From Micrococcales bacterium (GTDB taxonomy: Bacteria; Actinomycetota; Actinomycetes; Actinomycetales; Microbacteriaceae): a DNA stretch of 64,000 nucleotides. Of this stretch, positions 44,087-60,432 are shown piece after piece. A program made the position numbers and the translations under genes. The stretch is taken from contig JAHEGC010000011.1 in the NCBI GenBank assembly GCA_024639965.1, positions 12,263-76,262 of the forward strand, read 5' to 3'. Within the stretch, counting starts at the first letter, position 1, and the number at the start of each line of letters is the position of its first letter. The notes under the pieces were generated by a model. That model made no database searches, was not told the DNA's origin, and was given only the letters and a program-made list of their open reading frames with translations.

Positions 44087-44128
44087 GCGATTCCTCTCAT
44101 CAACGGCGGGCACGGGATTGCCACGACG

Positions 44129-45349: not shown

Positions 45350-45356
45350 GACGGGA

Positions 45357-45551
45357 TTATTCGACGAACTTGATCGCCTGCATCGGACAGATGTCGATGG
45401 CGAGCTGGATGTTGTCGCGTTCGCTGTCGTCCGCGGTCGATTCGTATTCGAGCTTGTCGTCCTCGTTGAGGCGGAAGACAGTGGGGGCGTCGAATACGCA
45501 CTGACCGTAGTGCTGGCACTTCTCCATGTCGACGTGGATCTTGAGAGTCAT
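45357..45551 (-). CDS. Small Fe-S ferredoxin (actinobacterial P450-partner type, 64 aa)
   Basis: ATG 45551 follows AGGAGA. Cluster ligands are CQHYGQC...CP. TAATG overlap with the upstream FAH gene. Confidence 0.8.
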   Translation of the reverse strand: MTLKIHVDMEKCQHYGQCVFDAPTVFRLNEDDKLEYESTADDSERDNIQLAIDICPMQAIKFVE

Positions 45552-46426: not shown

Positions 46427-47330
46427 GCGAGAGCACCAGATCCTTCGGTCGCGGGAATCCGCCCTCGGGCTTGGGGAACCACACGTGAACCTGACCGGTT
46501 CCGATGGAGTTCTCATATTCGCTGTAGAGCTCACCCGGCGCGGTGAGCGCCTCTTCACCGAGGGCGCCGGCGAGCGCGAGGTAGTGGAAGAACCCCGCCT
46601 CCGGCTTGTACTTCCGGAAGGTGTCGAAGTCGTCGAGGATCGCCTTGTGGTCGCCCGCCTTCATCCACTCGAGCACCTTGAGGTCGTACTGGTAGGCCTC
46701 CGGTGTGTAGATGTGCTTGGGGTCGCTCGCCTCGTGCTTGCGCAGGTCGCGAAGTTTGTGGAACGTGTGCGACAGCGCGCCCGAGCCGAGGATGAGCACC
46801 TTGCGGTCGGAGTCGCGAATCGCTTCCCCGAGAGCACGTCCCGCGCGAATGAAGTCCTCCGGAGTCGCGGTCTGGCACACCGACATCGAGATCCACGCCT
46901 TTTCGTCGAGACCGCGGCCGAGGTAGTGCCACAGATTGACGGTCGCGTAGAAGATGGGGAGGTGCGGGTCGGCGATGGGGGTCACCCACGTGCCATTCTT
47001 TTCGTCGTAGTTCGCGACGGCTTTGGCGAGTTCGGGGTCACCCTTGATCGCATAGGGAATTTGGGTCATGCCGCGGGGGAGTTCCTCCGAGGTGAACAGG
47101 CCACTGCGCTCGGCGGCCGAGGTGATGACGAATTCGACGGTCGTCGCCCAGTGCGAGTCGAGCACAACGACGGTGTCGTAATCGAGGGTTTCGAAGACGT
47201 CCTTGCGAAGTTTCTTGAGCCCCGGTACGAGCGAAAGTTCCTTGCCGTCGTTGAGGTCTTTACGAACCGCCTCCGGCAACATGATCGTGGGCACGTGAGC
47301 CAGAATGGCGGCTCCGACAACTTCTCCCAT
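46419..47330 (-). CDS. hpaD: 3,4-dihydroxyphenylacetate (homoprotocatechuate) 2,3-dioxygenase, LigB-type extradiol dioxygenase
   Basis: Resembles E. coli HpaD/HpcB along its length (AHVPTIML, VVLDSHWATT, SGALSHTF, SIGTGQVHVWFP). Confidence 0.78.
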   Translation of the reverse strand: MGEVVGAAILAHVPTIMLPEAVRKDLNDGKELSLVPGLKKLRKDVFETLDYDTVVVLDSHWATTVEFVITSAAERSGLFTSEELPRGMTQIPYAIKGDPELAKAVANYDEKNGTWVTPIADPHLPIFYATVNLWHYLGRGLDEKAWISMSVCQTATPEDFIRAGRALGEAIRDSDRKVLILGSGALSHTFHKLRDLRKHEASDPKHIYTPEAYQYDLKVLEWMKAGDHKAILDDFDTFRKYKPEAGFFHYLALAGALGEEALTAPGELYSEYENSIGTGQVHVWFPKPEGGFPRPKDLVLSRD

Positions 47331-47333
47331 GGG

Positions 47334-48797
47334 TTACTCCTTCCATCCGTTCGGTGAAATGACAGTGTTCTTGACATCGGCGTAAAAGTCGAACGACCAA
47401 ATCCCGCCGTCACGGCCGATTCCCGATTTCTTGGAACCGCCGAAGGGGGCGCGGAGGTCGCGCACGAAGAAGCAGTTGACCCAGATGGTGCCCGCGACGA
47501 GTTCGTTCGTGATGCGCGCCGCGTGGTCGCGGTCGCCCGAGACGACGACGGCGGCGAGCCCGAATTCGGTGCCGTTTGCCATCGCGATGACCTCGTCGTC
47601 GGTGGAGAAGGTTTGCATCACCAGCACGGGGCCGAAGATTTCACTCGTGACGATTTCACTGCCGGGGGCCGGGTTCATGACGAGGGTCGGAGTGAAGTAG
47701 AGCCCGCCGAGTTCGGCGTTCGGTTCGCCACCCCAAACGATGTTGTGACCCTCGGCGATGGCGCGGTCGACGAACCCCTTGATGCGGTCGAAGTGGACCT
47801 GGTGGATTTGTGGGCCGATATCGGTCGCGGGGTCGCGCGGGTCACCCTGAGTGAGCGCCGCCGCCTTCTCTCGGAATTTCTCGGCGAATGCGTCGGCGAT
47901 CGATTCGTGCACGAGGATGCGCGTACCCGAGAGGCACACCTGACCGGCGTTGTCGTATTGTTCGACGGCGATCTCGGCTGCGAGGTCGAGGTCGGCGTCG
48001 GCGAGCACGATGCACGGGCTCTTTCCGCCGAGTTCAAACGACACGGGCGTGAGGTTGTCGGCCGCGGCGTGGGCGATGATCTTCGCCGTCGGGACTGAGC
48101 CGGTGAACGAGATTCGGGCGATTCCGGGGTGCGCGGTGAGCGCCGAGCCCGCCTCCTTACCGTATCCGTTGACGACGTTGAAGACGCCGTCGGGGATGCC
48201 CGCCTGCTTGGTGAGGTCGGCGAAGTACGAGGCGGTGAGCGGCGTCCATTCCGCCGGCTTGAGAACGACGGTGTCGCCCGCGGCGAGGGCCGGGCCGATT
48301 TTCCAGGTCGCGAGCATGAGCGGTGCGTTCCACGGCGTGATGAGCGCGGCGACGCCTGACGGATCCCAGGAGACGTTGTTGGTGTGGCCACGAGTCTCAA
48401 ACACATCGTGCTTGAGTTCGTTCATTGCGAAGTCGGCGAAGAACCGAATGTTCATGGCGACGCGAGGCATGACGCCGCGCAGGTGTGAACGGAGGAGTGC
48501 GCCGTTATCGAGCGTCTCAATGTTGGCGAGGGTCTCGATGTTGGCCTCAACGAGGTCGGCGAGTTTGTTGAGCAGTTCGCCCCGTTTGTGGGGGCCGAGC
48601 TTCGACCAGGCGGGGAACGCGGCGCGAGCGGCCCGAACGGCGAGATCGATTTCGGCTTCGCCTCCGCGGGCGATGTCACCGAGGAAGGTTCCGTCGATGG
48701 GCGAGGTGTTGACGTAGGTCTCCGCCGAGGCGACGCGCTGGCCATTGATGTAGTGGCGCGTGTCGACCGCGACACCGGCGACGTCGATGGTGCTCAT
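47334..48797 (-). CDS. hpaE: 5-carboxymethyl-2-hydroxymuconate semialdehyde dehydrogenase
   Basis: ALDH motifs (ITPWNAPL, ELGGKSP, catalytic Cys in NAGQVCLSGTR) and HpaE-like N- and C-termini. ATG 48797 follows GAGG. Confidence 0.75.
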   Translation of the reverse strand: MSTIDVAGVAVDTRHYINGQRVASAETYVNTSPIDGTFLGDIARGGEAEIDLAVRAARAAFPAWSKLGPHKRGELLNKLADLVEANIETLANIETLDNGALLRSHLRGVMPRVAMNIRFFADFAMNELKHDVFETRGHTNNVSWDPSGVAALITPWNAPLMLATWKIGPALAAGDTVVLKPAEWTPLTASYFADLTKQAGIPDGVFNVVNGYGKEAGSALTAHPGIARISFTGSVPTAKIIAHAAADNLTPVSFELGGKSPCIVLADADLDLAAEIAVEQYDNAGQVCLSGTRILVHESIADAFAEKFREKAAALTQGDPRDPATDIGPQIHQVHFDRIKGFVDRAIAEGHNIVWGGEPNAELGGLYFTPTLVMNPAPGSEIVTSEIFGPVLVMQTFSTDDEVIAMANGTEFGLAAVVVSGDRDHAARITNELVAGTIWVNCFFVRDLRAPFGGSKKSGIGRDGGIWSFDFYADVKNTVISPNGWKE

Positions 48798-48909
48798 CGG
48801 GTCCAACCTCACTTCATCGGGAGAAAGATAATCATTCGCATACTAACGATTGTTTCCCTGATATAAAAGTCCTGTTGCAATCTTTTTTGCGAATCCCGAA
48901 AGGCTCACC

Positions 48910-49608
48910 ATGACGCACGCACCCCGTCCGCGAATCGCCATTCTCGCGCGCTTCGCCGAGAGCACCTCGGCGACTCGTTACGCGGCGATTGTGACGGCTC
49001 GCCGTCTCGCCGAACTCGTCTGGGCTGCCGGTGGCGAACCCCTGACGATGCTCCCCGTCGCGGGTGCGGATTGGTCCGATCGCCTCCGTGGAATTGATGG
49101 CGTGCTCATGCCGGGAGGCGCCGACATCAACCCGCGAACCTACGGACAAGAAATTGCCTCCGACCACGTTTACGACGTGGACGACCTCGCCGACGAGGCG
49201 GACATCGCACTCGTGAAGCACGCGCTCGCCTCGGGCCTCCCCTATCTCGCGATTTGCCGTGGGCTCCAGATCACCAATGTCGCCCTCGGTGGAACACTTG
49301 TTCAACACATGGAGCAGCCGCATCAACACCACGTGGCGCCTGTCACATTCGAAAGCCACGTCGACGAGCTCGGCCTCTCGACCGCCACGGTTCAGGCGTC
49401 GTGTTACCACCACCAAATGATCGACGAGGTCGCCCCCGGCATCGAGGTCATCGCCCGGTCGGCCGAAGGGCACGTCGAAGCGGCGAAGATCCCGGCGAAG
49501 GGATGGGCGTTCGGAGTGCAGTGGCACCCCGAGGACAACTACGACACCAACGCCCCACAGCTCGAGCTCGTGACGCGGTTCGTTGCCGAGGCGAAGGCGC
49601 GCGCCTAG
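48910..49608 (+). CDS. Gamma-glutamyl-GABA hydrolase family (PuuD-like, peptidase C26 class-I amidotransferase)
   Basis: Nucleophile elbow AICRGLQ, plus HHQ and GVQWHPE. Confidence 0.8.
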   Translation: MTHAPRPRIAILARFAESTSATRYAAIVTARRLAELVWAAGGEPLTMLPVAGADWSDRLRGIDGVLMPGGADINPRTYGQEIASDHVYDVDDLADEADIALVKHALASGLPYLAICRGLQITNVALGGTLVQHMEQPHQHHVAPVTFESHVDELGLSTATVQASCYHHQMIDEVAPGIEVIARSAEGHVEAAKIPAKGWAFGVQWHPEDNYDTNAPQLELVTRFVAEAKARA

Positions 49609-50099
49609 CCCTCGATCTTCGCTGTAATCGCGCGGAGCATGTCAGCGAGGTCCGTGCGCTTGCCGTCCGGAATCGCCGAGACAACGTCGATCTCCTGCTT
49701 GTTGAACGCGGGGAAAAGATTCTCCATCAGTTTGTGACCCGCGGGGAGCAGCGTCACGATGACAAGTCGCCCGTCTGACGCGCTGCGCGAGCGCTTCGCG
49801 AGTCCCATTTTTTCGAGCGTCGTGAGTACACCCGTGAGCGTCGCTTTGGAGATGCTCGCCTCGGCCGCGATCTCGCGTGTTTCGGCCGGCTCCCAAATCC
49901 ACGTCACCCACAGCACGACGAACGCCGTCCAGGAAAGACCGGATGCGGCGAGAACGGTGCGCTCGAAGTTGTTGCGAACGGCGCTCGCTGCGCGAAAAAG
50001 ATTGGAGGACACCGCCATCGCCTCGAAATCGAGGGTCATGTGGCTCAACCGGTTGGCGACGCGCGCTTCGGTCTCCGCGAGGGTGTGGCTGCCAGTCAT
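49605..50099 (-). CDS. MarR-family transcriptional regulator
   Basis: 164 aa with a winged-helix core (LTGVLTTLEKMGLAKRSRSASDGR). Divergent from the P450 gene. Confidence 0.8.
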   Translation of the reverse strand: MTGSHTLAETEARVANRLSHMTLDFEAMAVSSNLFRAASAVRNNFERTVLAASGLSWTAFVVLWVTWIWEPAETREIAAEASISKATLTGVLTTLEKMGLAKRSRSASDGRLVIVTLLPAGHKLMENLFPAFNKQEIDVVSAIPDGKRTDLADMLRAITAKIEG

Positions 50100-50107
50100 T
50101 TGTATCC

Positions 50108-50132
50108 TAAGAATCGGTTTTCCCTATTCTTA
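50108..50132. promoter_or_regulatory. Inverted repeat between marR and the P450 gene (candidate MarR operator)
   Basis: TAAGAAT-N11-ATTCTTA, starting 9 nt upstream of the marR start codon. Confidence 0.4.
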
Positions 50133-50182
50133 TGCACCCTCTTGACGGGCATACGGGGTTTGGTATTAGTATTGTTTATATT

Positions 50183-50195
50183 ATTCGTACCCGAA
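50183..50195. promoter_or_regulatory. ATTCGTACCCGAA box upstream of the P450 gene (copy 1 of 2)
   Basis: Same 13-mer as at 54630..54642. It ends 21 nt before the P450 ATG. Confidence 0.35.
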
Positions 50196-50216
50196 CAATC
50201 TCAACGAGGAGAAATC

Positions 50217-51455
50217 ATGGCGACGCAATCACTCGCAGATCTTGATCTGTTTGACAAGGGCGCACCGTGGGACGTCTTCGCGGAACTCCGTGAGAAGGCC
50301 CCCATCAACTGGAGCGACGAGACCGACGGCGGCTCGGGATTCTGGTCGGTCATGAAGTACCACGACATCGTCAACGTTCTCCGCGATCCCGCGACGTTCA
50401 CGAGCGAACACTTCACCAACCTCGAGGAACTCGAACCCGACCAAGAAGAAGCGCGTCGCTCGCTCATCGACACCGACGGCACGCGTCACCGCGCACTGCG
50501 CCGTCTCCTCCAGGGGGAGTTCACGCCCAACAACGTCGCCAAGTACGAGACGTTCCTCCGTGGTCTGACCGCGACGACCCTCGACCAAGCGTTCGCGAAG
50601 GGCGAATTCGACTTCCTCCAGGATGTCGCCGCCGACTTCCCCATCCGCGTGCTCTCACGACTTCTCGATGTGCCCGACACCGACATCGACGACATCATCC
50701 GGTGGGGAAACGCGATGATCGGAAACTCCGACCCCGAACTCTCGTCGATGCTTCCGACCGACCCGGAGAGCGAGAAGTTCCGCCTCGTTCCGTTCCGTTC
50801 GCCGGCCGCCCTCGAGGTGTTCGCCTACGGTGACGAGCTCAAGCGCCAGCGCCTCGGGCACAACGGTGTCGACCTCGTGTCGAAGATGATCAACCAGACG
50901 CCGATGGACGGAACCCCGCTCAGCGATCGCGACTTCCACACCAACTTCCTGCTGCTCATCGTTGCGGGTCACGAGACGACGCGTCAGACGATCGCGCACA
51001 CGATGAACAACCTCATCGACAACCCGCAGGTCATCGAGTATCTCCAGCAGAACCCGCAGGACATCCCGTGGGCGGTCGAAGAGTTCCTTCGCTTGGCGAG
51101 CCCCGTTTACCACTTCCGCCGAACCGCGACGAAGGACGTCGACTTCAAGGGTCAGCACATCGAGAAGGGCCAGAAGGTCGTCGTGTGGTTCGCGTCGGGA
51201 AACCGCGACCCCGAGATCTTCAAGGACCCCAACGCGATGAACCCGACCCGTATGCCGAACGAGCACATGTCGTTCGGTCGCGGCGGACCCCACCTCTGTC
51301 TCGGAAACGCGCTCGCGCGTATCGAGCTCATCATCATGTTCGAAGACCTCATCGGCCGTATTTCGTCGATGGAACGCACCGCACCGATCGAGTACCTTCA
51401 CTCAAACTTCGTGCACGGCGTCAAGGGGATGCCCGTCAAGGTGACCCTGCGCTAA
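50217..51455 (+). CDS. Cytochrome P450
   Basis: ATG 50217 follows GAGGAGA. I-helix AGHETT, EEFLR (ExxR), heme loop FGRGGPHLCLGNALAR. The 50040 start would overlap marR. Confidence 0.9.
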   Translation: MATQSLADLDLFDKGAPWDVFAELREKAPINWSDETDGGSGFWSVMKYHDIVNVLRDPATFTSEHFTNLEELEPDQEEARRSLIDTDGTRHRALRRLLQGEFTPNNVAKYETFLRGLTATTLDQAFAKGEFDFLQDVAADFPIRVLSRLLDVPDTDIDDIIRWGNAMIGNSDPELSSMLPTDPESEKFRLVPFRSPAALEVFAYGDELKRQRLGHNGVDLVSKMINQTPMDGTPLSDRDFHTNFLLLIVAGHETTRQTIAHTMNNLIDNPQVIEYLQQNPQDIPWAVEEFLRLASPVYHFRRTATKDVDFKGQHIEKGQKVVVWFASGNRDPEIFKDPNAMNPTRMPNEHMSFGRGGPHLCLGNALARIELIIMFEDLIGRISSMERTAPIEYLHSNFVHGVKGMPVKVTLR

Positions 51456-51506
51456 AAAAAGCGTGCCGGGCCGGCCTCGTGGTGGAGTCGGCCCCGTACC
51501 CATACA

Positions 51507-51534
51507 GAACGGCCCCGCAGAAGCGGGGCCGTTC
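51507..51534. terminator. Bidirectional stem-loop between convergent P450 and amidotransferase genes
   Basis: Perfect 12-bp stem GAACGGCCCCGC-agaa-GCGGGGCCGTTC. Confidence 0.7.
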
Positions 51535-51552
51535 TCACGTTGAGAGGGGGAT

Positions 51553-52260
51553 CTAGATGAGCTTCGCGACGCGGTGGAGGAACGCGTCGATGAGTTTGTA
51601 GGTTCGCGCCTCGCCCGCCGCATCCTCGGCGATCGTTTGCGCGAGCATCACGTCGGGGTCTTGGTTGTCCTTGATGACGAGCGGAACCCCGCCCTCGTCG
51701 AGCCACCCCTTGAGAGCGGCCGAGTCGAGTTCGGGGTGGAACTGCACCGCGAGCGAGCGGTTGATGACGAACGCTTGCGACGCGACCGGGTTGCGCGCGA
51801 TCTCCGTCGCTCCGGGCGGCACCTGCCAGCGGTCGTAGTGGAACTGGAACCACGGACCGTTTCCGACGAGGTCGTGGTCGTCGCTCCAAATGTTGGTCCA
51901 CCCGATCTCGGGGTGCTCTCCGGGGGCGACCGAGCCACCCATCGCGCGGGCCATCAGTTGACCGCCGAAGCAGATTCCGAGAACGGGCCGGTCCGCGGCG
52001 ACGAGGTCGCGGCACATCTCGAGTTCCGGGGTGAGCCAGTTCCCAATACACGCGTCATCCCACGCACCCCAGGGCGCTCCGAGAAAGACGACGAGGTCGA
52101 ATTGCGTCGGGTCGGGGAAGTCGACGGCGACGTTCGGTTCACGGAACGACGTCTCGGGGACAACGAGGAATTCGGTGATATCGAAACCGTGGTGTTCGAG
52201 ACGTTTGCCGACTGGGCCTGTGGGGCTCACGTGGTCGTGCTGAATGACGAGGGCTTTCAT
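51553..52260 (-). CDS. Class I glutamine amidotransferase-like protein (probable gamma-glutamyl-amide hydrolase)
   Basis: Nucleophile elbow GICFGGQ and QFHPE. Paralogue of 60433..61152. Confidence 0.75.
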   Translation of the reverse strand: MKALVIQHDHVSPTGPVGKRLEHHGFDITEFLVVPETSFREPNVAVDFPDPTQFDLVVFLGAPWGAWDDACIGNWLTPELEMCRDLVAADRPVLGICFGGQLMARAMGGSVAPGEHPEIGWTNIWSDDHDLVGNGPWFQFHYDRWQVPPGATEIARNPVASQAFVINRSLAVQFHPELDSAALKGWLDEGGVPLVIKDNQDPDVMLAQTIAEDAAGEARTYKLIDAFLHRVAKLI

Positions 52261-52338
52261 GAACTTCTCCTTAGGAGCGGCGATGCTCCACGACTATTGT
52301 GACTCAGAAGGGCGATTCGATACAATTCATTTGCCCCC

Positions 52339-52352
52339 TAACGATATCGTTA
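52339..52352. promoter_or_regulatory. Perfect 14-bp palindrome upstream of the GS-like gene
   Basis: TAACGATATCGTTA, ending 30 nt upstream of ATG 52383. Confidence 0.4.
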
Positions 52353-52382
52353 CCTCAACAGACTTGCCACAAAGGAGTAGCA

Positions 52383-53735
52383 ATGGTCAAGGATCTCGCC
52401 AAACTGCGCGACGACCTCGGAGAGCGTGGAATCGATGTGCTTCGCGTGATGTATGCGGACGTTCTCGGCATCGCACGCTCGAAGGACATCCTCGTCAGCC
52501 AGCTCGACAAGGCGGCCCACAACGGTCCGGCATTCAGTCAGGGCGTGTGGACGACGACGACGGGCGGAGAGTTCCACGAGGCAAACGGCATCGCGAACGA
52601 CGGGTTGCAGGACTTCCTCACAAAGATCCTCCCCAGTTCGATCTCACCGCTCGCCTGGGAACCCGGTGTCGCCTACGTGATCGGTGATGCGTTCAACCCG
52701 AACGGCAAACCCAACATGATGTCGCCGCGTTCGGTGCTCCAGAAGGTCCTCGAAAGCTACAAGAACCTCGGGCTCCACCCCGTCGTCGGACCGGAACTCG
52801 AGTTCTACATTTCGACTCAGGACGAGCACGGCACCTACCACCGCTTCGCCAAGGAGACGGGTCGCGTGTACACGACCGGAACGCAGGTCGACCCCGACGG
52901 CGACTTCCTCTATCTCATGCGCATGCTCGACAACCTCAACATCGGCGCGTTCGCGGGCAACCACGAGTTCAGCCCGAGCCAGTACGAAATCAACCTCTGG
53001 CACTCCGAAGCGCTGGATGCGGCCGACCGCACCTTCTTCTTCAAGACGGCGGTCAAGGACATCATCGCCAAGCGGGGTAAGCACGCGACCTTCCTCGGCA
53101 AGCCGTGGAGCGACGAGGGCGGCTCCGGCTTCCACCTTCACTTCTCCATCACCGACGCCGACGGCATCAACCAGATGCACGACGGCCGCGGGCGGCTTTC
53201 TGATGCGGCGAAGATGCTGATCGCGGGAATCGTCAAAAATGCGAACGCCCTCACCGCGTTCACCAATCCGACCGTCAACGCGTTCAAGCGACTCGGCCCC
53301 GACACCCTCGCGCCCTACCGGTCGAACTGGGGTTACGACAACCGTTCGTGCATGGTGCGCATTCCTCCGGAGCGCGGCCAGGGCACTCGACTCGAAATTC
53401 GCGTCGGCGACGGTGCGGCGAACCCCTACCTCGTCATCGCGGGAATTCTCGCGGCGGGTCTCGACGGAATCGTCAATGAACTCGAATGCCCGCCCGACGC
53501 CGTCGGCATGGCCTATGACAACGAGGGCGCCGAGGTGCTCCCGCAGTCGTTCACCGAAGCGCTCGATGCGCTCGAGGCGAACGACGCCCTTCGTACTCAG
53601 ATGTCGCAGGAGCTCATCAACGTGTTCATGGTTCTCAAGCGCGACGAAATCGCGCGCTACGAAGCCGAAGTCTCCGACCCCACGACCCGCGAGGTTACCG
53701 ATTGGGAGATCAAGGAATACGGCTCCGCCTACTAG
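52383..53735 (+). CDS. Glutamine synthetase family protein (GlnA-like gamma-glutamyl-amine synthetase)
   Basis: ATG 52383 follows AAGGAG. GS catalytic motifs PELEFY, NHEFSPSQYEIN, GSGFHLHFS and RVGDGAANPYL. Confidence 0.85.
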   Translation: MVKDLAKLRDDLGERGIDVLRVMYADVLGIARSKDILVSQLDKAAHNGPAFSQGVWTTTTGGEFHEANGIANDGLQDFLTKILPSSISPLAWEPGVAYVIGDAFNPNGKPNMMSPRSVLQKVLESYKNLGLHPVVGPELEFYISTQDEHGTYHRFAKETGRVYTTGTQVDPDGDFLYLMRMLDNLNIGAFAGNHEFSPSQYEINLWHSEALDAADRTFFFKTAVKDIIAKRGKHATFLGKPWSDEGGSGFHLHFSITDADGINQMHDGRGRLSDAAKMLIAGIVKNANALTAFTNPTVNAFKRLGPDTLAPYRSNWGYDNRSCMVRIPPERGQGTRLEIRVGDGAANPYLVIAGILAAGLDGIVNELECPPDAVGMAYDNEGAEVLPQSFTEALDALEANDALRTQMSQELINVFMVLKRDEIARYEAEVSDPTTREVTDWEIKEYGSAY

Positions 53736-53793: not shown

Positions 53794-54609
53794 TTAGATC
53801 GAGGGGTTGGATCCGAGGTCGGCGACGAGCGTTCCGCCGTTGAAGGTGGTTCCTACCTCGCGGAAGTAACCGCCGAGAATCTCCTTCACCGGAAGGATCG
53901 AGCCGAGCTCGTCCCATTGCGAATCGCTCAGGGTCAGTTCCGCGGTGCCACCCCACGCCGGACCGAGATCGAGGTCGACGCCACCCATCGTGATGAGCTG
54001 GTCGAGGGAGTTGCCCTTGCCGGGGGTGATCGACGGAACCCAGCGGTTGTGGAGCATTTTGTGACCGTTGACGAAACCGTTGCTCTCAACGGGACCTGTG
54101 AGGGTCACCTTCGCCGACGCGAGGCGGTGGTCGTACGCCGCGAGGCTCGCACCAAACTTCGCGCCTTTCTCGAGGCGGGGTGTTGCCTTGCCACGGTTGT
54201 ACACACGCGTCGCGTGCATCGAACCCAGCTTCTTCGGGTAGCCCTGGAACCAACCGCGCGCCATGGCGAAATCCTTGGTCACCCAGATCGCGACACAACG
54301 GCTGTACGTAACGCCGTCGTACTTGCAGCGAACAACGACGAACGTCTCCATATATTGTGAACGATCGGGATCGAGCAACTCCTCGAAGTCGTCACTACAC
54401 GACTGCCAGTCGGCCCAGATGAGCGCGACCGCGCCCGGCTGCTCGTCGGCGAGATCGAGTTCGGCGGGCAGGATAGCGCGGACGTTCGCCGGGTCGGTGA
54501 GGTACTCCACGGTGAGTAGTGTGCCCGAATAGTGCCACGGCATCTCGGGGATAACGGCGCTCTTCCCCGACGGGGTCTTGGGCGCAAGAAAGCCTTTAAG
54601 TTCGCTCAT
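53794..54609 (-). CDS. Acetoacetate decarboxylase (ADC) family protein
   Basis: 271 aa with an N-terminal MPWHYSGTLLTVEYLTD-type pattern and a length typical of the ADC/MppR-like family. Confidence 0.6.
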   Translation of the reverse strand: MSELKGFLAPKTPSGKSAVIPEMPWHYSGTLLTVEYLTDPANVRAILPAELDLADEQPGAVALIWADWQSCSDDFEELLDPDRSQYMETFVVVRCKYDGVTYSRCVAIWVTKDFAMARGWFQGYPKKLGSMHATRVYNRGKATPRLEKGAKFGASLAAYDHRLASAKVTLTGPVESNGFVNGHKMLHNRWVPSITPGKGNSLDQLITMGGVDLDLGPAWGGTAELTLSDSQWDELGSILPVKEILGGYFREVGTTFNGGTLVADLGSNPSI

Positions 54610-54629: not shown

Positions 54630-54643
54630 ATTCGTACCCGAAT
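54630..54643. promoter_or_regulatory. ATTCGTACCCGAAT box upstream of the ADC-like gene (copy 2 of 2)
   Basis: Palindromic arms ATTCG/CGAAT. It begins 20 nt upstream of the ADC-like start codon at 54609. Confidence 0.35.
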
Positions 54644-54714
54644 AAATAGTCGCGGCTGATTTCCGTCGGAAAAAATATTCCATATTAAGTGCTTGCGTTC
54701 GCGCTCAATTTTTG

Positions 54715-54748
54715 AAACGATAGGGGTAATCGTTTACCCCCAAACGAT
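54715..54748. promoter_or_regulatory. AAACGAT inverted repeat plus a third half-site upstream of the permease gene
   Basis: AAACGAT-N7-ATCGTTT (54715..54735) and another AAACGAT at 54742..54748. Confidence 0.35.
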
Positions 54749-54776
54749 TTTCATGAACTCAATGAGGAGATCAGAT

Positions 54777-56270
54777 ATGTCGTCGACTAAAGAGAAGAAG
54801 AGCGAAGGGCTCCGTAAAGGACGCCTCGGCATCGCCGGCATCGCCTTCTTCGTCGTGGCCGCTTCGGCGCCCATGGCGGGAATGACGGGTACAGTCCCCG
54901 TCGCATCAGTACTTGGTAATGGAACGGCCGTCCCCGGCGCATTCGTTGCCGTCGGACTCATCCTTTTGGTGTTCAGCGTGGGCTTCACCGCGATGAGCCA
55001 CAAGGTCACCAACGCCGGAGCGTTTTTCGCTTACGTCGGTAAGGGCCTCGGAACCAACATGGGCGTCGGCTCGGCATTCGTGTCGATTCTTTCGTACCTG
55101 ACGGTTCAGCTCGCCGTCTACGGCTTCTTCGGTGCCATCGCCAACGCATTCTTCACGCCGATCGTCGGCGACTGGGGCTGGCTCACCTGGTGTGCCATCG
55201 CGTGGGCGGCCGTCACCGCACTGTCGCTGCTGACGGTCGATGTCGGTGCGAAGTTCCTCGGAATTCTCACCTCGCTCGAGATTCTCTCGCTCGTCGTGAC
55301 GGGAGTTGCGATTCTCGCCAAGGGCGGCCCGGAGGGGTACAACTTCCAGGCCTCGTTCGACCCGTCGCTCATCTTCGCGGGAGGCTTCGCCGGTACTGCC
55401 GGTATCGCCCTCTCGTTCGCGTTCGCGTCCTTCATCGGATTCGAATCGACGGCGATCTATGGCGAAGAAGCAAAAGACCCGAAGAACACCGTTCGTCGCG
55501 CCACCTACGTCGCCGTGAGCGTCATCGCCGGTCTCTTCACCCTCGTGAGCTTCGCGATGGTCACTGGCCTCGGAGCGAGCACGTACATCGACCAGACGCT
55601 CGCGCTCTCGGAAGGACTCGTCAACCCCGCCGGAGTTCTCTTCTCGCTCGCGAGTGACGCGGTTGGACCGTGGATGGCCGACGCCATGAACGTCTTCCTC
55701 ATCACGTCGATGTTCGCTGGTCTTCTCGCGTTCCAGAACGCCGCGTCACGATACTTCTTCGCGATGGGCCGCGGTGGAGTTCTCCCCCGCGCACTCGCCG
55801 CGACGAACCGTCGTGGAGCCCCTCAGGGTGGTGTCATCGCTACCTCGGTCATTGCCATGATCGTTATGGTGCTGTTCTTCGTGAACGCTCTTGACCCGGT
55901 TCTCCACCTGTTCTACTGGACCAGCACGATTGCCGTGCTCGCAATTACCCTCGTCGAGATCTTCGTCTCGATCGCGGTTATCGCGTACTTCCGCAAGAAC
56001 AAGGGTGCAAGCCTTTGGCAGGGAACGATCGCCCCGGCGCTCGCCACCCTCGGAATGGCGCTCGCGATGTACCTCATCATCGCGCGCTTCAACCTCCTCG
56101 CGGGCACCGTGGCCGATAACGTCGACCCGACCCTCCCGGAGAGCGCATTTGCGTTGAGCCCGTTCGGTTGGTTCCTCGTGGCGCTGCCCTTCATCTTCTT
56201 CGTGATCGGCCTCGTCAGCGGCGTGGTCAACAAGAAGGAGAACTCGTCGCTCGTTTCGGACATGTCCTAA
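54777..56270 (+). CDS. APC-superfamily amino acid/amine permease
   Basis: ATG 54777 follows GAGGAGA. About 12 TM, with an APC-like N-terminal segment (GIAGIAFFVVAASAPMAG). Confidence 0.8.
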   Translation: MSSTKEKKSEGLRKGRLGIAGIAFFVVAASAPMAGMTGTVPVASVLGNGTAVPGAFVAVGLILLVFSVGFTAMSHKVTNAGAFFAYVGKGLGTNMGVGSAFVSILSYLTVQLAVYGFFGAIANAFFTPIVGDWGWLTWCAIAWAAVTALSLLTVDVGAKFLGILTSLEILSLVVTGVAILAKGGPEGYNFQASFDPSLIFAGGFAGTAGIALSFAFASFIGFESTAIYGEEAKDPKNTVRRATYVAVSVIAGLFTLVSFAMVTGLGASTYIDQTLALSEGLVNPAGVLFSLASDAVGPWMADAMNVFLITSMFAGLLAFQNAASRYFFAMGRGGVLPRALAATNRRGAPQGGVIATSVIAMIVMVLFFVNALDPVLHLFYWTSTIAVLAITLVEIFVSIAVIAYFRKNKGASLWQGTIAPALATLGMALAMYLIIARFNLLAGTVADNVDPTLPESAFALSPFGWFLVALPFIFFVIGLVSGVVNKKENSSLVSDMS

Positions 56271-57955: not shown

Positions 57956-57996
57956 GGTGCTGCTTTCGGTGTTGCCGACGATCAGGTCGTTCGGGT

Positions 57997-58956: not shown

Positions 58957-59068
58957 GGTACCTCCACGATGAGATTTCGGAGAGTAGTTGCCGGCGATGA
59001 AAGCCTCGGTTACTCTATAAAATATTGTATATCCGATTTGCGGATTCGACACTCAAAGATGAGGAACC

Positions 59069-60412: not shown

Positions 60413-60432
60413 ACCGAGAGAAGAACACCACC

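What the first reader, a model, noticed from the sequence alone, without database searches (positions are those of the whole stretch)
48910..53735. MarR-controlled P450 embedded among gamma-glutamylation enzymes: oxygenation of a gamma-glutamyl-amine?
Seen: in 4.8 kb the genes, on alternating strands, are a PuuD-like C26 hydrolase, marR, a P450, a class-I amidotransferase-like hydrolase and a GlnA-like synthetase. Established: GlnA-like enzymes ligate glutamate to amines, as in E. coli PuuA and the Streptomyces GlnA2-4 paralogues for polyamines and ethanolamine. In aniline and isopropylamine degradation, the gamma-glutamylated amine, not the free amine, is the substrate of the oxygenase, after which an amidotransferase-like hydrolase releases glutamate. 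Inference: here a P450 may act as the oxygenase on a gamma-glutamyl-(aryl)alkylamine, with its ferredoxin and reductase at 44129-45551. Given the adjacent homoprotocatechuate genes, tyramine or phenylethylamine-type amines are plausible substrates. I am not aware of such a P450-dependent variant being characterised.
Basis: partly seen in the sequence, partly recalled or inferred. Interest (0 to 1): 0.6.

Follow-up and report, generated by a model that had tools for sequence, protein, structure and literature searches.

The report
Glutamate-tagged aromatic amine breakdown cluster
A small freshwater actinobacterium carries a widely conserved but uncharacterised gene set that most likely attaches glutamate to a tyramine-like amine, oxidises it with a P450 and then opens the aromatic ring; I found no published description of this route.

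Summary
The five genes are real, at the stated coordinates and on alternating strands. Two starts need correcting: the P450 starts at 50217 and the GS-like gene probably at 52383.

They are part of a conserved unit, not a chance neighbourhood. Of 58 P450-anchored loci with full flanks from many Actinomycetota:
- 57 keep the GS-like ligase
- 56 keep an MppR/Sbi00515-like ADC-family enzyme
- 55 keep the LigB-type extradiol dioxygenase
- 55 keep the HpaE-like ALDH
- 52 keep the HpcE-like FAH enzyme

Most also keep the ferredoxin, reductase and permease.

Distant variants replace LigB with a VOC-type extradiol dioxygenase. They often add an aromatic-amino-acid-type decarboxylase. No deaminating enzyme is conserved.

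Best reading, by inference only: an arylethylamine of the tyramine type is gamma-glutamylated and turned into a catechol by the P450. It is then ring-cleaved with the glutamyl group still attached, ending in a gamma-glutamyl amino acid that the PuuD-like hydrolase splits.

A P450 acting on a gamma-glutamyl amine is not new in concept, because the Ipu clusters of Paenarthrobacter aurescens TC1 are annotated that way. Fusion with a meta-cleavage pathway appears undescribed.

This scan reached the same reading earlier on other genomes. No step has been tested experimentally.

The parts
44129..45349 (-). Ferredoxin-NAD(P) reductase, P450 redox partner
   Evidence: Pyr_redox_2 1.6e-56 and Reductase_C. 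An orthologue lies in 45 of 58 full-flank P450 loci.
45357..45551 (-). 64-aa single-cluster ferredoxin, P450 redox partner
   Evidence: ORF found. Fer4_13 1.2e-10 and Fer4_15. Present in 48 of 58 loci.
45551..46426 (-). FAH-family enzyme, HpcE-like (OPET decarboxylase / HHDD isomerase type)
   Evidence: FAA_hydrolase 6.3e-55. Nearest structure is the E. coli HpcE C-domain 1gtt, 2.3e-63. HpaG-C-term scores 206 bits, below the 276 cut-off. Present in 52 of 58 loci. The start shown is a probable GTG; the longest ORF runs to 46558.
46419..47330 (-). LigB-type extradiol ring-cleavage dioxygenase
   Evidence: LigB 3.7e-25. Nearest structure is 3,4-dihydroxyphenylacetate 2,3-dioxygenase 8iq8, 3.8e-22; aminophenol dioxygenases score only 5e-11. 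HpaD_Fe scores 134 bits, below the 316 cut-off. Present in 55 of 58 loci. Orthologues sampled elsewhere sit in the same kind of cluster.
47334..48812 (-). Aldehyde dehydrogenase 1, ring-fission semialdehyde dehydrogenase (HpaE-like)
   Evidence: Aldedh 1.6e-153. Best NCBIfam hit is HpaE at 515 bits, below the 638 cut-off. Present in 55 of 58 loci.
48910..49608 (+). PuuD-like gamma-glutamyl-amide hydrolase (peptidase C26)
   Evidence: Peptidase_C26 3.4e-42. PuuD equivalog scores 72.5 bits, below the 266 cut-off. Cys-His-Glu motifs present. Present in 26 of 58 loci; 12 of these also hold an ALDH2 orthologue, usually directly beside it.
49605..50099 (-). MarR-family regulator, divergent from the P450
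   Evidence: MarR 1.4e-12. Best NCBIfam hit is HpaR at 52.9 bits, below the 121 cut-off. Found divergent from the P450 in 32 of 58 loci.
50183..50195 (.). Near-palindromic box ATTCGTACCCGAA (TTCG-N4-CGAA) 21 nt upstream of the P450 start; candidate operator
   Evidence: It occurs exactly twice in the window, both times in promoter regions. TTCG-N4-CGAA recurs in the MarR-P450 intergenic region of 8 of 19 related loci.
50217..51455 (+). Cytochrome P450 (412 aa) of the CYP125/126/124/268 clade
   Evidence: p450 6.6e-28. Motifs AGHETT, EEFLR and FGRGGPHLCLG are present. Nearest structures are a reconstructed CYP125 ancestor (1.3e-96) and CYP126 (6e-62). Only 30% identical to the TC1 Ipu P450.
51553..52260 (-). 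Class I amidotransferase-like hydrolase (GAT1)
   Evidence: GATase 5.2e-11. PRK07053 scores 114.6 bits, below the 250 cut-off. Cys and His-Glu motifs present. Found in Microbacteriaceae and Nanopelagicales loci and in most distant variants.
52339..52352 (.). Palindrome TAACGATATCGTTA upstream of the GS-like gene
   Evidence: Read directly. A related AAACGAT-N7-ATCGTTT lies at 54715-54735 upstream of the permease.
52383..53735 (+). GS-like gamma-glutamyl-amine ligase (GS1)
   Evidence: Gln-synt_C 5.7e-91. Metal, ATP and glutamate residues are invariant, but the DGSS ammonium site and the flap Glu (Leu here) are lost (alignment A2). Present in 57 of 58 loci. PuuA equivalog scores 243.7 bits, below the 650 cut-off. 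34% identical to IpuC.
53794..54609 (-). ADC-superfamily enzyme of the MppR/Sbi00515 type; proposed hydratase-aldolase
   Evidence: ADC 4.4e-55. Nearest structures are MppR 4jm3 (1.5e-49) and 4zbo/6eej, recalled as Sbi00515 (about 7e-46). K126 aligns with position 156 of the MppR chain, recalled as its Schiff-base lysine. Present in 56 of 58 loci. It is the only ADC-family gene found in the genome.
54630..54642 (.). Second exact copy of the ATTCGTACCCGAA box, 20 nt upstream of the ADC-family gene start, in the ADC/permease divergent region
   Evidence: TTCG-N4-CGAA also lies in the ADC-permease region of 3 related loci.
54693..56270 (+). APC-family amino acid/amine permease (true start probably near 54753)
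   Evidence: AA_permease_2 1.2e-24. Orthologues lie in 44 of 58 loci.
56447..57955 (-). Aldehyde dehydrogenase 2, PuuC-like. It is in an operon with the neighbouring module but is orthologous to the ALDHs that sit beside PuuD-like genes in other clusters.
   Evidence: Best NCBIfam hit is PuuC at 515.7 bits, below the 850 cut-off. Orthologues of 54-60% identity lie in 14 of 58 full-flank loci, 12 of which also hold a PuuD-like gene.

Best explanation
The locus is the regulatory and activating half of one conserved catabolic pathway for an aromatic amine whose nitrogen sits on a side chain. A tyramine- or dopamine-type arylethylamine is the most likely substrate.

Proposed route; every chemical step is inferred:
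1. The APC permease takes up the amine. In relatives that carry a linked aromatic-amino-acid-type decarboxylase, it may take up the parent amino acid instead.
2. GS1 ligates glutamate to the amine nitrogen, using ATP.
3. The P450, with its ferredoxin and reductase, oxygenates the gamma-glutamyl amide to give a catechol. This would be ring hydroxylation, or O-demethylation of a methoxy analogue.
4. The LigB-type dioxygenase opens the ring while the nitrogen is still blocked. This would prevent the free amine from cyclising onto the ring-fission aldehyde.
5. ALDH1 oxidises the semialdehyde. The HpcE-like FAH enzyme isomerises and decarboxylates it.
6. The MppR/Sbi00515-like ADC-family enzyme acts as hydratase-aldolase. 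It releases pyruvate and a gamma-glutamyl amino-aldehyde, which would be gamma-glutamyl-4-aminobutanal if the substrate is a phenethylamine.
7. A PuuC-like ALDH and the PuuD-like or GAT1 hydrolase give the amino acid (GABA) and regenerate glutamate.

The MarR protein probably represses the P450 and ADC/permease promoters through the shared TTCG-N4-CGAA box.
For: **Conserved gene set**
- Of 58 full-flank loci anchored on orthologous P450s, GS1 is present in 57, ADC in 56, LigB in 55, ALDH1 in 55, FAH in 52, Fdx in 48, FdR in 45 and the permease in 44. The neighbouring ADH/GS2/GAT2/ALDH3 genes appear in none.
- Loci anchored independently on GS1 (16 of 16) and on LigB (most of 14) show the same set.
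- In distant variants the LigB gene is replaced by a two-domain VOC-type dioxygenase at the same operon position. The function (extradiol cleavage), not the fold, is what is conserved.

**What is missing or added**
- No amine oxidase, transaminase or other deaminating enzyme is conserved among neighbours. The commonest extra family is in only 9 of 80 loci.
- Group II PLP decarboxylases are linked in 15 of 80, 9 of 16 and 6 of 14 loci, and are in-operon in some. Their nearest structures are mainly tyrosine, tryptophan and DOPA decarboxylases.
- PuuC-like ALDH2 orthologues lie in 14 of 58 loci; 12 of these also hold a PuuD-like hydrolase, usually directly beside it, as in the puu operon.
- The S. 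lunaelactis plasmid pSLUN1 keeps GS1, LigB, ALDH1, FAH, ADC, ALDH2, PuuD, MarR and the permease. It has no orthologous P450 on the whole plasmid, as expected if a substrate that is already a catechol needs no P450.

**Individual enzymes**
- GS1 keeps the catalytic residues but lacks the ammonium-site DGSS motif and the flap Glu.
- LigB is nearest to a homoprotocatechuate dioxygenase and FAH to HpcE.
- The ADC enzyme is MppR/Sbi00515-like and keeps the lysine that aligns with position 156 of MppR.
- MppR condenses pyruvate with an aldehyde, and MppR-like proteins are induced with a meta-cleavage pathway in Saccharolobus (PMC7820114).

**This genome**
- At 94% completeness, no HpaB-type hydroxylase and no copper amine oxidase was found.
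- The exact 13-mer box lies upstream of both the P450 and the ADC gene. It recurs in relatives.
Against: - No enzyme activity, metabolite or growth phenotype is known for any member.
- The substrate is inferred from gene content only.
- The P450 belongs to a clade (CYP125/124/126/268) best known for hydroxylating aliphatic chain termini, not aromatic rings.
- About half of the full-flank loci, mainly the nine-gene Streptomyces form, have no gamma-glutamyl hydrolase within 10 kb (29 of 58 have one). There the last steps would have to be supplied in trans.
- ALDH2 in this window is in an operon with the neighbouring ADH2 of a different module.
- No decarboxylase lies in this window. A homologue is on another contig, next to an agmatine-deiminase-like gene.
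- The regulator that binds the box has not been identified.
- The literature library searched lacks most subscription journals.
Confidence: 0.5

Rival explanations
1. Oxidative-deamination surrogate. The P450 hydroxylates the carbon next to the amide nitrogen of the gamma-glutamyl amide. The carbinolamide then falls apart into L-glutamine plus an arylacetaldehyde. An ALDH makes homoprotocatechuate (from dopamine), which a genuine HPC meta-cleavage pathway degrades to pyruvate and succinic semialdehyde.
For: - It explains why about half of the loci have no gamma-glutamyl hydrolase nearby.
- ALDH2's third-best NCBIfam hit is phenylacetaldehyde dehydrogenase StyD.
- An SSADH-like ALDH3 lies at 61208-62686.
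- LigB and FAH are nearest to HPC-pathway enzymes.
- In Ruegeria sp. TM1040, a GAT-P450-GS trio (P450 38% identical) sits next to paaABCD phenylacetate genes and lacks ring-cleavage genes.
- From memory only, not verified here: P450 oxidation next to the nitrogen of gamma-glutamyl-piperidide has been reported for a Pseudomonas piperidine pathway.
Against: - The P450-less pSLUN1 cluster still keeps GS1 and PuuD. That makes no sense if the ligase exists only to feed the P450.
- Hydrolases are core operon members in the distant variants and in the freshwater lineages.
- With tyramine as substrate a 4-HPA 3-hydroxylase would be needed, and none was found in this genome.
- ALDH3 is not conserved with the cluster.
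- LigB, ALDH1 and FAH all score below the HpaD/E/G equivalog cut-offs.
Confidence: 0.15
2. Ipu-style order of events. The gamma-glutamyl amine is hydroxylated by the P450, then immediately hydrolysed by GAT1 or PuuD to the free catecholamine. An unlinked enzyme deaminates this to homoprotocatechuate for ordinary meta-cleavage.
For: - Two hydrolases flank the P450 in this window.
- The Ipu pathway hydrolyses directly after hydroxylation (PMC6776027).
- The genome has three class III aminotransferases elsewhere.
Against: - No deaminating enzyme is conserved in any of about 110 loci examined.
- No copper amine oxidase was found in this genome.
- The recurrence of PuuC-like and PuuD-like genes together suggests a gamma-glutamyl aldehyde intermediate late in the pathway.
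- Glutamylating and then deglutamylating before the step that needs protection gives no obvious benefit.
Confidence: 0.12
3. Arylamine (aniline-type) pathway. The nitrogen is on the ring. The gamma-glutamyl-anilide is ortho-hydroxylated by the P450 and hydrolysed to an aminophenol. The LigB enzyme cleaves this as in the amn pathway.
For: - GS-like ligases start the aniline and 1-naphthylamine pathways (PMC11335346 and PMC4539516, listed).
- LigB-family 2-aminophenol dioxygenases are detectable relatives (5e-11).
Against: - LigB is much closer to homoprotocatechuate dioxygenase (3.8e-22) than to AmnB. It also has no partner alpha subunit.
- There is no 2-aminomuconate deaminase in the cluster.
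- The linked aromatic-amino-acid-type decarboxylases would produce side-chain amines.
- The PuuC/PuuD-like pair would have no role.
Confidence: 0.08
4. Alkylamine hydroxylation of the Ipu type (for example isopropylamine to alaninol), with the meta-cleavage genes being functionally unrelated neighbours.
For: - The P450 clade (CYP125/124) typically hydroxylates methyl-branched chain termini.
- The TC1 ipu clusters combine IpuC, a P450, Fdx, FdR and an amidotransferase.
- ADH and ALDH genes lie nearby in this window.
Against: - The ring-cleavage, FAH and ADC genes accompany the P450 and GS1 in 52-56 of 58 loci across many genera. They share a promoter box with the P450.
- Identity to the Ipu proteins is only 30-34%.
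- The nearby ADH genes are not conserved with the cluster.
Confidence: 0.05

Closest known systems
Isopropylamine (Ipu) pathway: Pseudomonas sp. KIE171 ipuABCDEFGH and the ipu clusters of Paenarthrobacter aurescens TC1 plasmids pTC1/pTC2
   Same: A GS-like ligase makes a gamma-glutamyl amide. That amide, not the free amine, is the substrate of a multicomponent monooxygenase, annotated as P450 + ferredoxin + reductase in TC1. An amidotransferase-like hydrolase regenerates glutamate, and a permease sits alongside (PMC6776027; pTC1 annotation).
   Different: - Our P450 is 30% identical to the TC1 P450. GS1 is 34% and GS2 33% identical to IpuC.
- The Ipu clusters have no extradiol dioxygenase, FAH or ADC-family genes.
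- The Ipu substrate is a small alkylamine, and glutamate is removed right after hydroxylation.
Homoprotocatechuate (4-hydroxyphenylacetate) meta-cleavage pathway, E. coli hpa/hpc genes (HpaD/HpcB, HpaE, HpaG/HpcE, HpaH, HpaI, HpaR)
   Same: It has a LigB-type extradiol dioxygenase, a semialdehyde dehydrogenase, a FAH-fold isomerase/decarboxylase and a MarR-type regulator. The nearest solved structures are HPC dioxygenase and HpcE. The best NCBIfam hits are HpaD, HpaE, HpaG and HpaR.
   Different: - All four score below the curated equivalog cut-offs.
- The cluster has no HpaH hydratase, HpaI aldolase or HpaF isomerase. An ADC-superfamily enzyme takes their place.
- No HpaBC hydroxylase was found in the genome.
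- A GS-like ligase and a P450 are integral members.
E. coli putrescine utilisation (Puu) pathway: PuuA, PuuB, PuuC, PuuD
   Same: The glutamyl group is kept on the nitrogen as a protecting group while the rest of the molecule is oxidised. A gamma-glutamyl aldehyde dehydrogenase is followed by a C26 gamma-glutamyl hydrolase. The predicted late intermediates (gamma-glutamyl-4-aminobutanal and gamma-glutamyl-GABA) would be the same compounds.
   Different: - GS1, PuuD-like and ALDH2 are far below the PuuA, PuuD and PuuC equivalog cut-offs.
- There is no PuuB oxidase.
- The carbon skeleton is proposed to come from an aromatic ring rather than a diamine.
Aniline / 1-naphthylamine gamma-glutamylation pathways (AtdA1/TdnQ, NpaA1) with Rieske dioxygenases
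   Same: An aromatic amine is activated by a GS-like ligase before oxygenation. An amidotransferase-like hydrolase is encoded alongside (PMC11335346 and PMC4539516, listed).
   Different: There the oxygenase is a Rieske dioxygenase and the nitrogen is on the ring. Here the oxygenase is a P450. The linked decarboxylases and the HPC-like downstream enzymes point to a side-chain amine.
MppR (enduracididine biosynthesis) and Sbi00515, ADC-superfamily enzymes acting on 2-oxo acids
   Same: The ADC-family protein matches MppR (4jm3) at 1.5e-49 and entries 4zbo/6eej at about 7e-46. The PDB titles those entries only 'acetoacetate decarboxylase'; I recall them as Sbi00515. K126 aligns with position 156 of the MppR chain, recalled as its Schiff-base lysine. 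MppR condenses pyruvate with an aldehyde (PMC7820114), which is the reverse of the hydratase-aldolase step proposed here.
   Different: The MppR equivalog scores 181.7 bits, below the 380 cut-off. The context is catabolic, not an antibiotic cluster. The substrate is unknown.

Membership tests
GS-like gamma-glutamyl-amine ligases (PuuA / IpuC / GlnA3-4 / AtdA1 type) | Glutamine-synthetase catalytic domain with conserved metal, ATP and glutamate ligands | tested here: met
   Gln-synt_C 5.7e-91. E132, E134, E215, E223, H272, R325, R348, R360, E362 and R364 (numbering of the genome's own GlnA) are invariant in alignment A2.
GS-like gamma-glutamyl-amine ligases (PuuA / IpuC / GlnA3-4 / AtdA1 type) | Loss of the ammonium-site residues of true GS (DGSS motif with Asp50/Ser53; flap Glu327) | tested here: met
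   The genome's two true GS paralogues have DGSS and G(F/G)EAP. GS1 and its orthologues have an insertion instead of DGSS, and DTLAP/DTTAP in place of the flap motif. The assignment of these motifs to E. coli residue numbers rests on my knowledge.
GS-like gamma-glutamyl-amine ligases (PuuA / IpuC / GlnA3-4 / AtdA1 type) | Orthology to a characterised member (PuuA, IpuC) | tested here: not met
   GGputSyn scores 243.7 bits against a 650 cut-off. GS1 is 34% identical to TC1 IpuC. It forms a separate subfamily.
GS-like gamma-glutamyl-amine ligases (PuuA / IpuC / GlnA3-4 / AtdA1 type) | ATP-dependent ligation of glutamate to an organic amine | not testable with these tools
   Needs an enzyme assay.
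Class I (three-component) bacterial cytochrome P450 | Heme-thiolate loop FxxGxxxCxG, ExxR, and I-helix acid-alcohol pair | tested here: met
   FGRGGPHLCLG, EEFLR and AGHETT are present in the translation. p450 Pfam 6.6e-28.
Class I (three-component) bacterial cytochrome P450 | Cognate ferredoxin and FAD reductase encoded with it | tested here: met
   Fdx is at 45357-45551 and FdR at 44129-45349. They co-occur with the P450 in 48 and 45 of 58 loci.
Named CYP family (CYP125, CYP126, CYP124, CYP268, CYP151 ...) | More than 40% identity to a named extant member | tested here: inconclusive
   The best match is a reconstructed CYP125 ancestor (1.3e-96). Extant CYP126, CYP268, CYP124 and CYP125 score 6e-62 to 7e-57. 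Identities to extant members were not computed, and the nomenclature database is not on hand.
Ipu (isopropylamine) pathway | Orthologous IpuC ligase and Ipu monooxygenase, with no ring-cleavage genes | tested here: not met
   Identity is 30% for the P450 and 33-34% for the ligases. The TC1 cluster lacks LigB, FAH and ADC, which are core here.
Homoprotocatechuate meta-cleavage pathway (hpa/hpc) | HpaD, HpaE and HpaG equivalogs | tested here: not met
   HpaD_Fe scores 134 against 316, HpaE 515 against 638, and HpaG-C 206 against 276. They are clear relatives but fall below the curated thresholds.
Homoprotocatechuate meta-cleavage pathway (hpa/hpc) | HpaH hydratase and HpaI aldolase in the cluster, and an HpaBC hydroxylase feeding it | tested here: not met
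   Neither is among the conserved neighbours. No HpaB was found in the 94%-complete genome. HpcH/HpaI-family genes exist elsewhere, one about 4.8 kb beyond the window end, but they are not conserved with the cluster.
Puu pathway | PuuD-type C26 hydrolase with a Cys-His-Glu triad | tested here: met
   Peptidase_C26 3.4e-42. AICRG and WHPE motifs present. The PuuD equivalog score is 72.5 against 266, so it is not an orthologue.
Puu pathway | PuuA, PuuB and PuuC orthologues | tested here: not met
   PuuA-type scores 243.7 against 650. PuuC is the best hit of ALDH2, but at 515.7 against 850. There is no PuuB-type oxidase among the neighbours.
ADC superfamily, MppR/Sbi00515 branch | ADC fold with the Schiff-base lysine | tested here: met
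   PF06314 4.4e-55. K126 aligns with position 156 of the MppR chain, recalled as its Schiff-base lysine. The MppR equivalog scores 181.7 against 380, so it is not an MppR orthologue.
MarR-family repressors | Winged-helix MarR domain, divergent from the regulated operon, with a palindromic operator | tested here: inconclusive
   The domain is present. The gene is divergent from the P450 in 32 of 58 loci. A conserved TTCG-N4-CGAA box lies in the shared intergenic region. Binding has not been shown.

The most novel reading that the evidence does not exclude
The gamma-glutamyl group serves as an N-protecting group that is carried through P450 oxygenation and extradiol ring fission of a tyramine- or dopamine-type amine. 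The pathway would then converge on the Puu intermediates gamma-glutamyl-4-aminobutanal and gamma-glutamyl-GABA.

Where a decarboxylase is linked, this would be a previously undescribed tyrosine/arylethylamine catabolic route, with an ADC-fold hydratase-aldolase replacing HpaH/HpaI. It would be widespread in Actinomycetota, including loci titled Candidatus Nanopelagicales and genome-streamlined freshwater Microbacteriaceae, and in some Alphaproteobacteria.
Probability: 0.4. Interest if true: 0.75.

Novelty: new variant of a known kind. Interest (0 to 1): 0.6.

Why it matters
If the reading is right, four things follow.

- **A new logic for aromatic amine breakdown.** Bacteria would degrade biogenic aromatic amines without first removing the nitrogen. 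That combines the glutamyl protection of the Puu and Ipu pathways with meta-cleavage chemistry.
- **A physiological role for two enzyme groups.** It would assign one to a large, unannotated P450 subfamily. About 4,800 related proteins scored E <= 1e-30 among the candidates examined. It would also assign one to catabolic MppR/Sbi00515-like ADC-fold enzymes.
- **Ecological weight.** The cluster is retained in a 1.37-Mb streamlined freshwater genome and in loci titled Candidatus Nanopelagicales. That suggests such amines are a relevant carbon and nitrogen source in lakes and rivers.
- **A practical caution.** Annotating these genes as glutamine synthetase, homoprotocatechuate genes and acetoacetate decarboxylase hides a single pathway.

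Tried and rejected
**Literature**
- I searched for gamma-glutamyl-tyramine or -dopamine catabolism, for tyramine with GS-like, P450 and extradiol terms, for Sbi00515/Swit_4259, and for KU43P/CYP151/morpholine. None gave a description of this cluster.
- The KIE171 Ipu paper (PMC127573) is not held.
- A Pseudomonas piperidine pathway with a P450 acting on gamma-glutamyl-piperidide is recalled from memory only and could not be checked.
- The library lacks most subscription journals, so absence of a paper is weak evidence.

**Databases**
- pTC1 under NC_008712 and pTC2 under NC_008713 were not in the plasmid collection. pTC1 was reached as CP000475.

**Sequencing runs**
- Three riverine metagenome runs of one study hold 0.99 of the sampled words. 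They may be the source of this DNA, so they are not independent.
- One riverine metatranscriptome run of the same study gave short contigs on parts of the FdR/Fdx, PuuD/MarR, P450, GS1-ADC and permease genes. DNA carry-over cannot be excluded and contigs cannot rank expression. I treat this as no more than a weak hint of in-situ expression.
- Bins without RNA cover say nothing.

**Readings rejected**
- The right-hand GS2/GAT2/ADH2 set is not part of the same conserved unit. It appears in none of the 58 loci.
- The LigB enzyme is not a 2-aminophenol dioxygenase.
- The cluster is not a member of the Ipu pathway.

**Not attempted**
- Structure prediction, fold search and complex prediction were not run. 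None would decide substrate or regiochemistry.

Full report
**Observation**

- 48910-49608 (+): PuuD-like peptidase C26.
- 49605-50099 (-): MarR.
- 50040-51455 (+): P450.
- 51553-52260 (-): class I amidotransferase-like protein.
- 52299-53735 (+): glutamine-synthetase-like protein.

Two starts need correcting.
- The P450 begins at ATG 50217, behind a GAGGAG ribosome site. This leaves a 117-bp AT-rich divergent region shared with marR.
- The GS-like gene most likely begins at ATG 52383, behind AAGGAG. Its orthologues lack the 28-residue extension.

Both hydrolases keep the Cys and His-Glu motifs of class I amidotransferase-type hydrolases. The P450 has the heme-thiolate loop, ExxR and the I-helix AGHETT.

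**Wider context in the window**

- Left of the finding is a minus-strand operon: ALDH1 (HpaE-like), a LigB-type extradiol dioxygenase, an HpcE-like FAH-family enzyme, the ferredoxin, the reductase and a Zn-ADH.
- Right of it are an ADC-superfamily gene (53794-54609) and an APC permease.
- Further right is a second set: ALDH2, ADH2, a second GS-like gene and a second amidotransferase-like gene. An SSADH-like ALDH and an acyl-CoA dehydrogenase follow.

**The organism**

- The P450 is 90% identical to a protein from a MAG labelled Actinomycetota bacterium, and 82% identical to that of Aurantimicrobium sp. MWH-Uga1. Many freshwater Microbacteriaceae and Rhodoluna proteins follow at 70-85%.
- The genome held is 1.37 Mb and 94% complete.

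**Is the neighbourhood meaningful?**

I fetched 80 loci around orthologous P450s (52-87% identical) from one genome per species. I assigned their ORFs to the window's proteins by best BLASTP hit. The 58 loci with full 10-kb flanks contain:

| Gene | Loci of 58 |
|---|---|
| GS1 | 57 |
| ADC-family gene | 56 |
| LigB | 55 |
| ALDH1 | 55 |
| FAH | 52 |
| Ferredoxin | 48 |
| Reductase | 45 |
| Permease | 44 |
| MarR | 32 |
| PuuD-like | 26 |
| ALDH2-like | 14 |
| GAT1 | 12 |

- None contains ADH1, ADH2, GS2, GAT2 or ALDH3. The finding is therefore one half of a conserved unit, and the right-hand GS2 set is a separate module.
- The carriers include Microbacteriaceae, MAGs titled Candidatus Nanopelagicales, Streptomyces, Kitasatospora, Actinomadura, Amycolatopsis, Kibdelosporangium and Nocardioides.
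- A Novosphingobium plasmid carries the same set around a 39%-identical P450.

Anchoring on other genes gives the same picture.
- All 16 genomes of a 401-genome sample that have a GS1 orthologue also have the P450, ADC, ALDH1 and FAH next to it.
- LigB orthologues found in 33 further genomes of that sample again lie, in most of the 14 loci I fetched, with a P450, a more divergent GS-like gene, ADC, FAH and ALDH1.

**Three variations that help interpretation**

1. *Dioxygenase replacement.* In the distant operon form (FAH, GAT1, GS1, P450, X, ADC, ALDH1, permease, decarboxylase), gene X is not LigB. It is a two-domain VOC-type protein of the type I extradiol dioxygenase fold (L104:11828-12751). 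A non-orthologous replacement at the same position argues that extradiol ring cleavage is an obligatory step of this pathway.
2. *Linked decarboxylases.* A group II PLP decarboxylase is linked in 15 of 80 P450-anchored, 9 of 16 GS1-anchored and 6 of 14 LigB-anchored loci.
   - It is sometimes directly downstream of the P450 (L071, L016, L020). In others it sits in an ALDH1-LigB-permease-decarboxylase run.
   - Its nearest solved structures are mainly tyrosine, tryptophan, DOPA and other aromatic amino acid decarboxylases. Diaminobutyrate decarboxylase scores similarly for one subtype.
   - This window has no such gene. A 50-53% identical homologue lies at the end of another contig, next to an agmatine-deiminase-like gene.
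3. *A P450-less form.* The S. lunaelactis plasmid pSLUN1 has GS1, LigB, ALDH1, FAH, ADC, ALDH2, PuuD-like, MarR and the permease. It has no orthologous P450 anywhere on the plasmid; the best match is 35% identical.

No deaminating enzyme is conserved. After removing the assigned genes, the commonest extra family occurs in only 9 of 80 loci.

**The individual enzymes**

- *GS1.* It keeps every metal, ATP and glutamate ligand shared with the genome's two true glutamine synthetases. It lacks their DGSS motif and has Leu where the flap Glu sits (alignment A2). This is the usual signature of ligases that take an organic amine instead of ammonium. It is not an orthologue of PuuA (243.7 bits against 650) or of IpuC (34% identity).
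- *P450.* It falls in the CYP125/126/124/268 clade. The best match is a reconstructed CYP125 ancestor at 1.3e-96; extant members score 6e-62 or weaker. It is only 30% identical to the Ipu-cluster P450 of TC1.
- *LigB.* It is nearest to a 3,4-dihydroxyphenylacetate 2,3-dioxygenase (3.8e-22) and much further from 2-aminophenol dioxygenases.
- *FAH.* It is nearest to the C-terminal domain of E. coli HpcE (2.3e-63).
- *HpaD, HpaE, HpaG and HpaR models.* These are the best NCBIfam hits, but all fall below their curated cut-offs.
- *ADC-family protein.* It matches MppR (4jm3, 1.5e-49) and entries 4zbo/6eej, which I recall as Sbi00515 (about 7e-46). K126 aligns with position 156 of the MppR chain, recalled as its Schiff-base lysine. 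MppR condenses pyruvate with an aldehyde. MppR-like proteins are induced together with a meta-cleavage pathway in Saccharolobus (PMC7820114). A hydratase-aldolase role, replacing HpaH/HpaI, is therefore reasonable. It is the only ADC-family gene found in the genome.
- *ALDH2.* Its best family hit is PuuC. Of the 14 full-flank loci that have an orthologue of it, 12 also have a PuuD-like gene, usually directly beside it.

**Regulation**

- The 13-mer ATTCGTACCCGAA occurs exactly twice in 64 kb. One copy is 21 nt upstream of the P450 start and the other is 20 nt upstream of the ADC-family gene start.
- Its core, TTCG-N4-CGAA, is a palindrome.
- The core recurs in the MarR-P450 intergenic region of 8 of 19 related loci, and in the ADC-permease region of 3. 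By my arithmetic, about 0.04 chance occurrences would be expected in those short regions.
- This fits one regulon, probably under the MarR protein. Binding has not been shown.
- A different palindrome family (TAACGATATCGTTA at 52339; AAACGAT-N7-ATCGTTT at 54715) precedes GS1 and the permease.

**Mechanism**

Putting this together, the best-supported reading is a gamma-glutamyl-dependent pathway for an aromatic amine whose nitrogen is on a side chain.
1. The amine is taken up, or made from the amino acid where a decarboxylase is linked.
2. GS1 glutamylates the amine.
3. The P450 makes the catechol.
4. The dioxygenase opens the ring.
5. ALDH1 and the HpcE-like enzyme process the fission product.
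6. The ADC-fold enzyme releases pyruvate.

If the substrate is a phenethylamine, simple carbon counting on the homoprotocatechuate scheme applies. The aldehyde left after the aldol cleavage would then be gamma-glutamyl-4-aminobutanal, which is the Puu intermediate. That explains the PuuC-like and PuuD-like genes found together.

Keeping the nitrogen acylated would also prevent a known problem. A free amine cyclises onto a ring-fission aldehyde, as in betalamic acid formation from seco-DOPA (my knowledge).

Further points in favour:
- No HpaB-type hydroxylase and no copper amine oxidase was found in this 94%-complete genome. The classical tyramine to 4-HPA to HPC route is therefore not visibly encoded.
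- The P450-less pSLUN1 form fits a substrate that is already a catechol.

All chemical steps are inferences from gene content.

**Rivals**

- *Oxidative-deamination surrogate (most serious).* The P450 hydroxylates the carbon next to the amide nitrogen, giving glutamine plus an arylacetaldehyde that enters a true HPC pathway.
  - For: about half of the loci have no hydrolase within 10 kb. The Ruegeria TM1040 locus places a related GAT-P450-GS trio next to paa genes.
  - Against: it does not explain the P450-less form, the PuuC/PuuD-like genes found together, or the hydrolase being a core operon gene in distant variants.
- *Ipu-like order.* Hydrolysis right after hydroxylation would need an unlinked deaminase.
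- *Aniline-type reading.* It fits neither the dioxygenase nor the decarboxylases.
- *Pure alkylamine reading.* It ignores the conserved ring-cleavage genes.

**Comparison with what is known, and novelty**

- The idea of a P450 acting on a gamma-glutamyl amine is not new. The Ipu clusters of P. aurescens TC1 are described with IpuC, a multicomponent P450 system and an amidotransferase (PMC6776027, PMC1713258).
- What I could not find described is the union of this activation module with an extradiol meta-cleavage pathway and an ADC-fold aldolase. I also found no catabolic role for gamma-glutamyl-tyramine or -dopamine in bacteria.
- The library lacks most subscription journals, so this is a limited negative.
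- Other agents of this scan reached the same tyramine/dopamine reading on other genomes. I reached mine before reading theirs, but these are not independent evidence.

**Other data**

- The DNA is held almost completely by three riverine metagenome runs that may be its source.
- A metatranscriptome run of the same study gave short contigs on several cluster genes. DNA carry-over cannot be excluded, so this is at most a weak hint of expression.

**Verdict**

- The locus is a new variant of known gamma-glutamylation pathways. It is widely conserved, coherent and untested.

Noticed in passing
L097:7640-13616 (G000 contig C18, about 22.6-28.6 kb): The same 1.37-Mb genome has a second, unrelated P450-linked glutamylation module. 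It comprises an APC permease (minus strand), a P450 (411 aa, 25% identical to the window's), a GS-like gene (484 aa) and a PuuD-like hydrolase, with a GntR/FCD regulator nearby. It has no ring-cleavage genes. It is also not close to the TC1 Ipu proteins (26-27% for the P450 and ligase, 39% for the hydrolase).
   Followed up: partly
whole genome G000: This streamlined genome has six glutamine-synthetase-family genes and three P450 genes. Two of the P450s sit next to GS-like genes. That suggests an unusual investment in gamma-glutamyl amine metabolism.
   Followed up: partly
window 56447-61152: A separate module holds ALDH2 and ADH2 (minus strand) divergent from GS2 and GAT2. It resembles what I recall of the Streptomyces GlnA4 ethanolamine cluster. 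GS2, GAT2 and ADH2 are absent from all 58 P450-anchored loci, whereas ALDH2 has orthologues beside PuuD-like genes in other clusters. ALDH2 may therefore serve both modules. The comparison with SCO1613 was not run.
   Followed up: partly
window 52339-52352 and 54715-54735: A second palindrome family, distinct from the TTCG-N4-CGAA box. TAACGATATCGTTA precedes GS1 and AAACGAT-N7-ATCGTTT precedes the permease. This may indicate a second regulator.
   Followed up: partly
L104:11828-12751 (also L103, L105, L106, L109, L110, L112-L116): In a distant operon form of the cluster, the LigB-type dioxygenase is replaced at the same position by a two-domain VOC (glyoxalase-fold) protein. The operon ends with a permease and a group II decarboxylase.
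   Followed up: partly
L100:8151-11677 (Ruegeria sp. TM1040 megaplasmid): An amidotransferase-like gene, a P450 (38% identical) and a GS-like gene lie directly beside paaABCD phenylacetyl-CoA epoxidase genes, without LigB, FAH or ADC genes. This may be a phenylethylamine-type variant feeding the paa pathway.
   Followed up: no
L027, L028, L034: Some clusters carry two paralogous P450s of this subfamily (56% and 46-48% identical to the window's). That would fit two successive oxygenations or a broader substrate range.
   Followed up: no
L075:10443-11651 (also L082, L083, L085): In Nocardioides/Marmoricola-type loci, a Rieske VanA-like oxygenase lies next to the P450, and no ferredoxin or reductase pair was detected in the locus. 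This hints at methoxylated substrates or a different electron supply.
   Followed up: no
L099:6581-8627 (G000 contig C28 end): The genome's homologue of the cluster-linked decarboxylases (50-53% identical to those next to the P450 in Frigoribacterium and Salinibacterium loci) is cut by the contig end. It sits beside an agmatine-deiminase-like (PAD_porph) gene, so its role here is unclear.
   Followed up: partly
G000:C10:81019-81621 (about 4.8 kb beyond the window's right end): An HpcH/HpaI-family gene (aldolase or citrate-lyase-beta type) lies on the same contig just outside the window. It is not among the conserved neighbours of the cluster in other genomes.
   Followed up: no
window 43028-44113: An Ahr-like Zn-dependent alcohol dehydrogenase or aldehyde reductase closes the minus-strand operon here. 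It is absent from all 58 related loci, so it appears to be a lineage-specific addition.
   Followed up: partly
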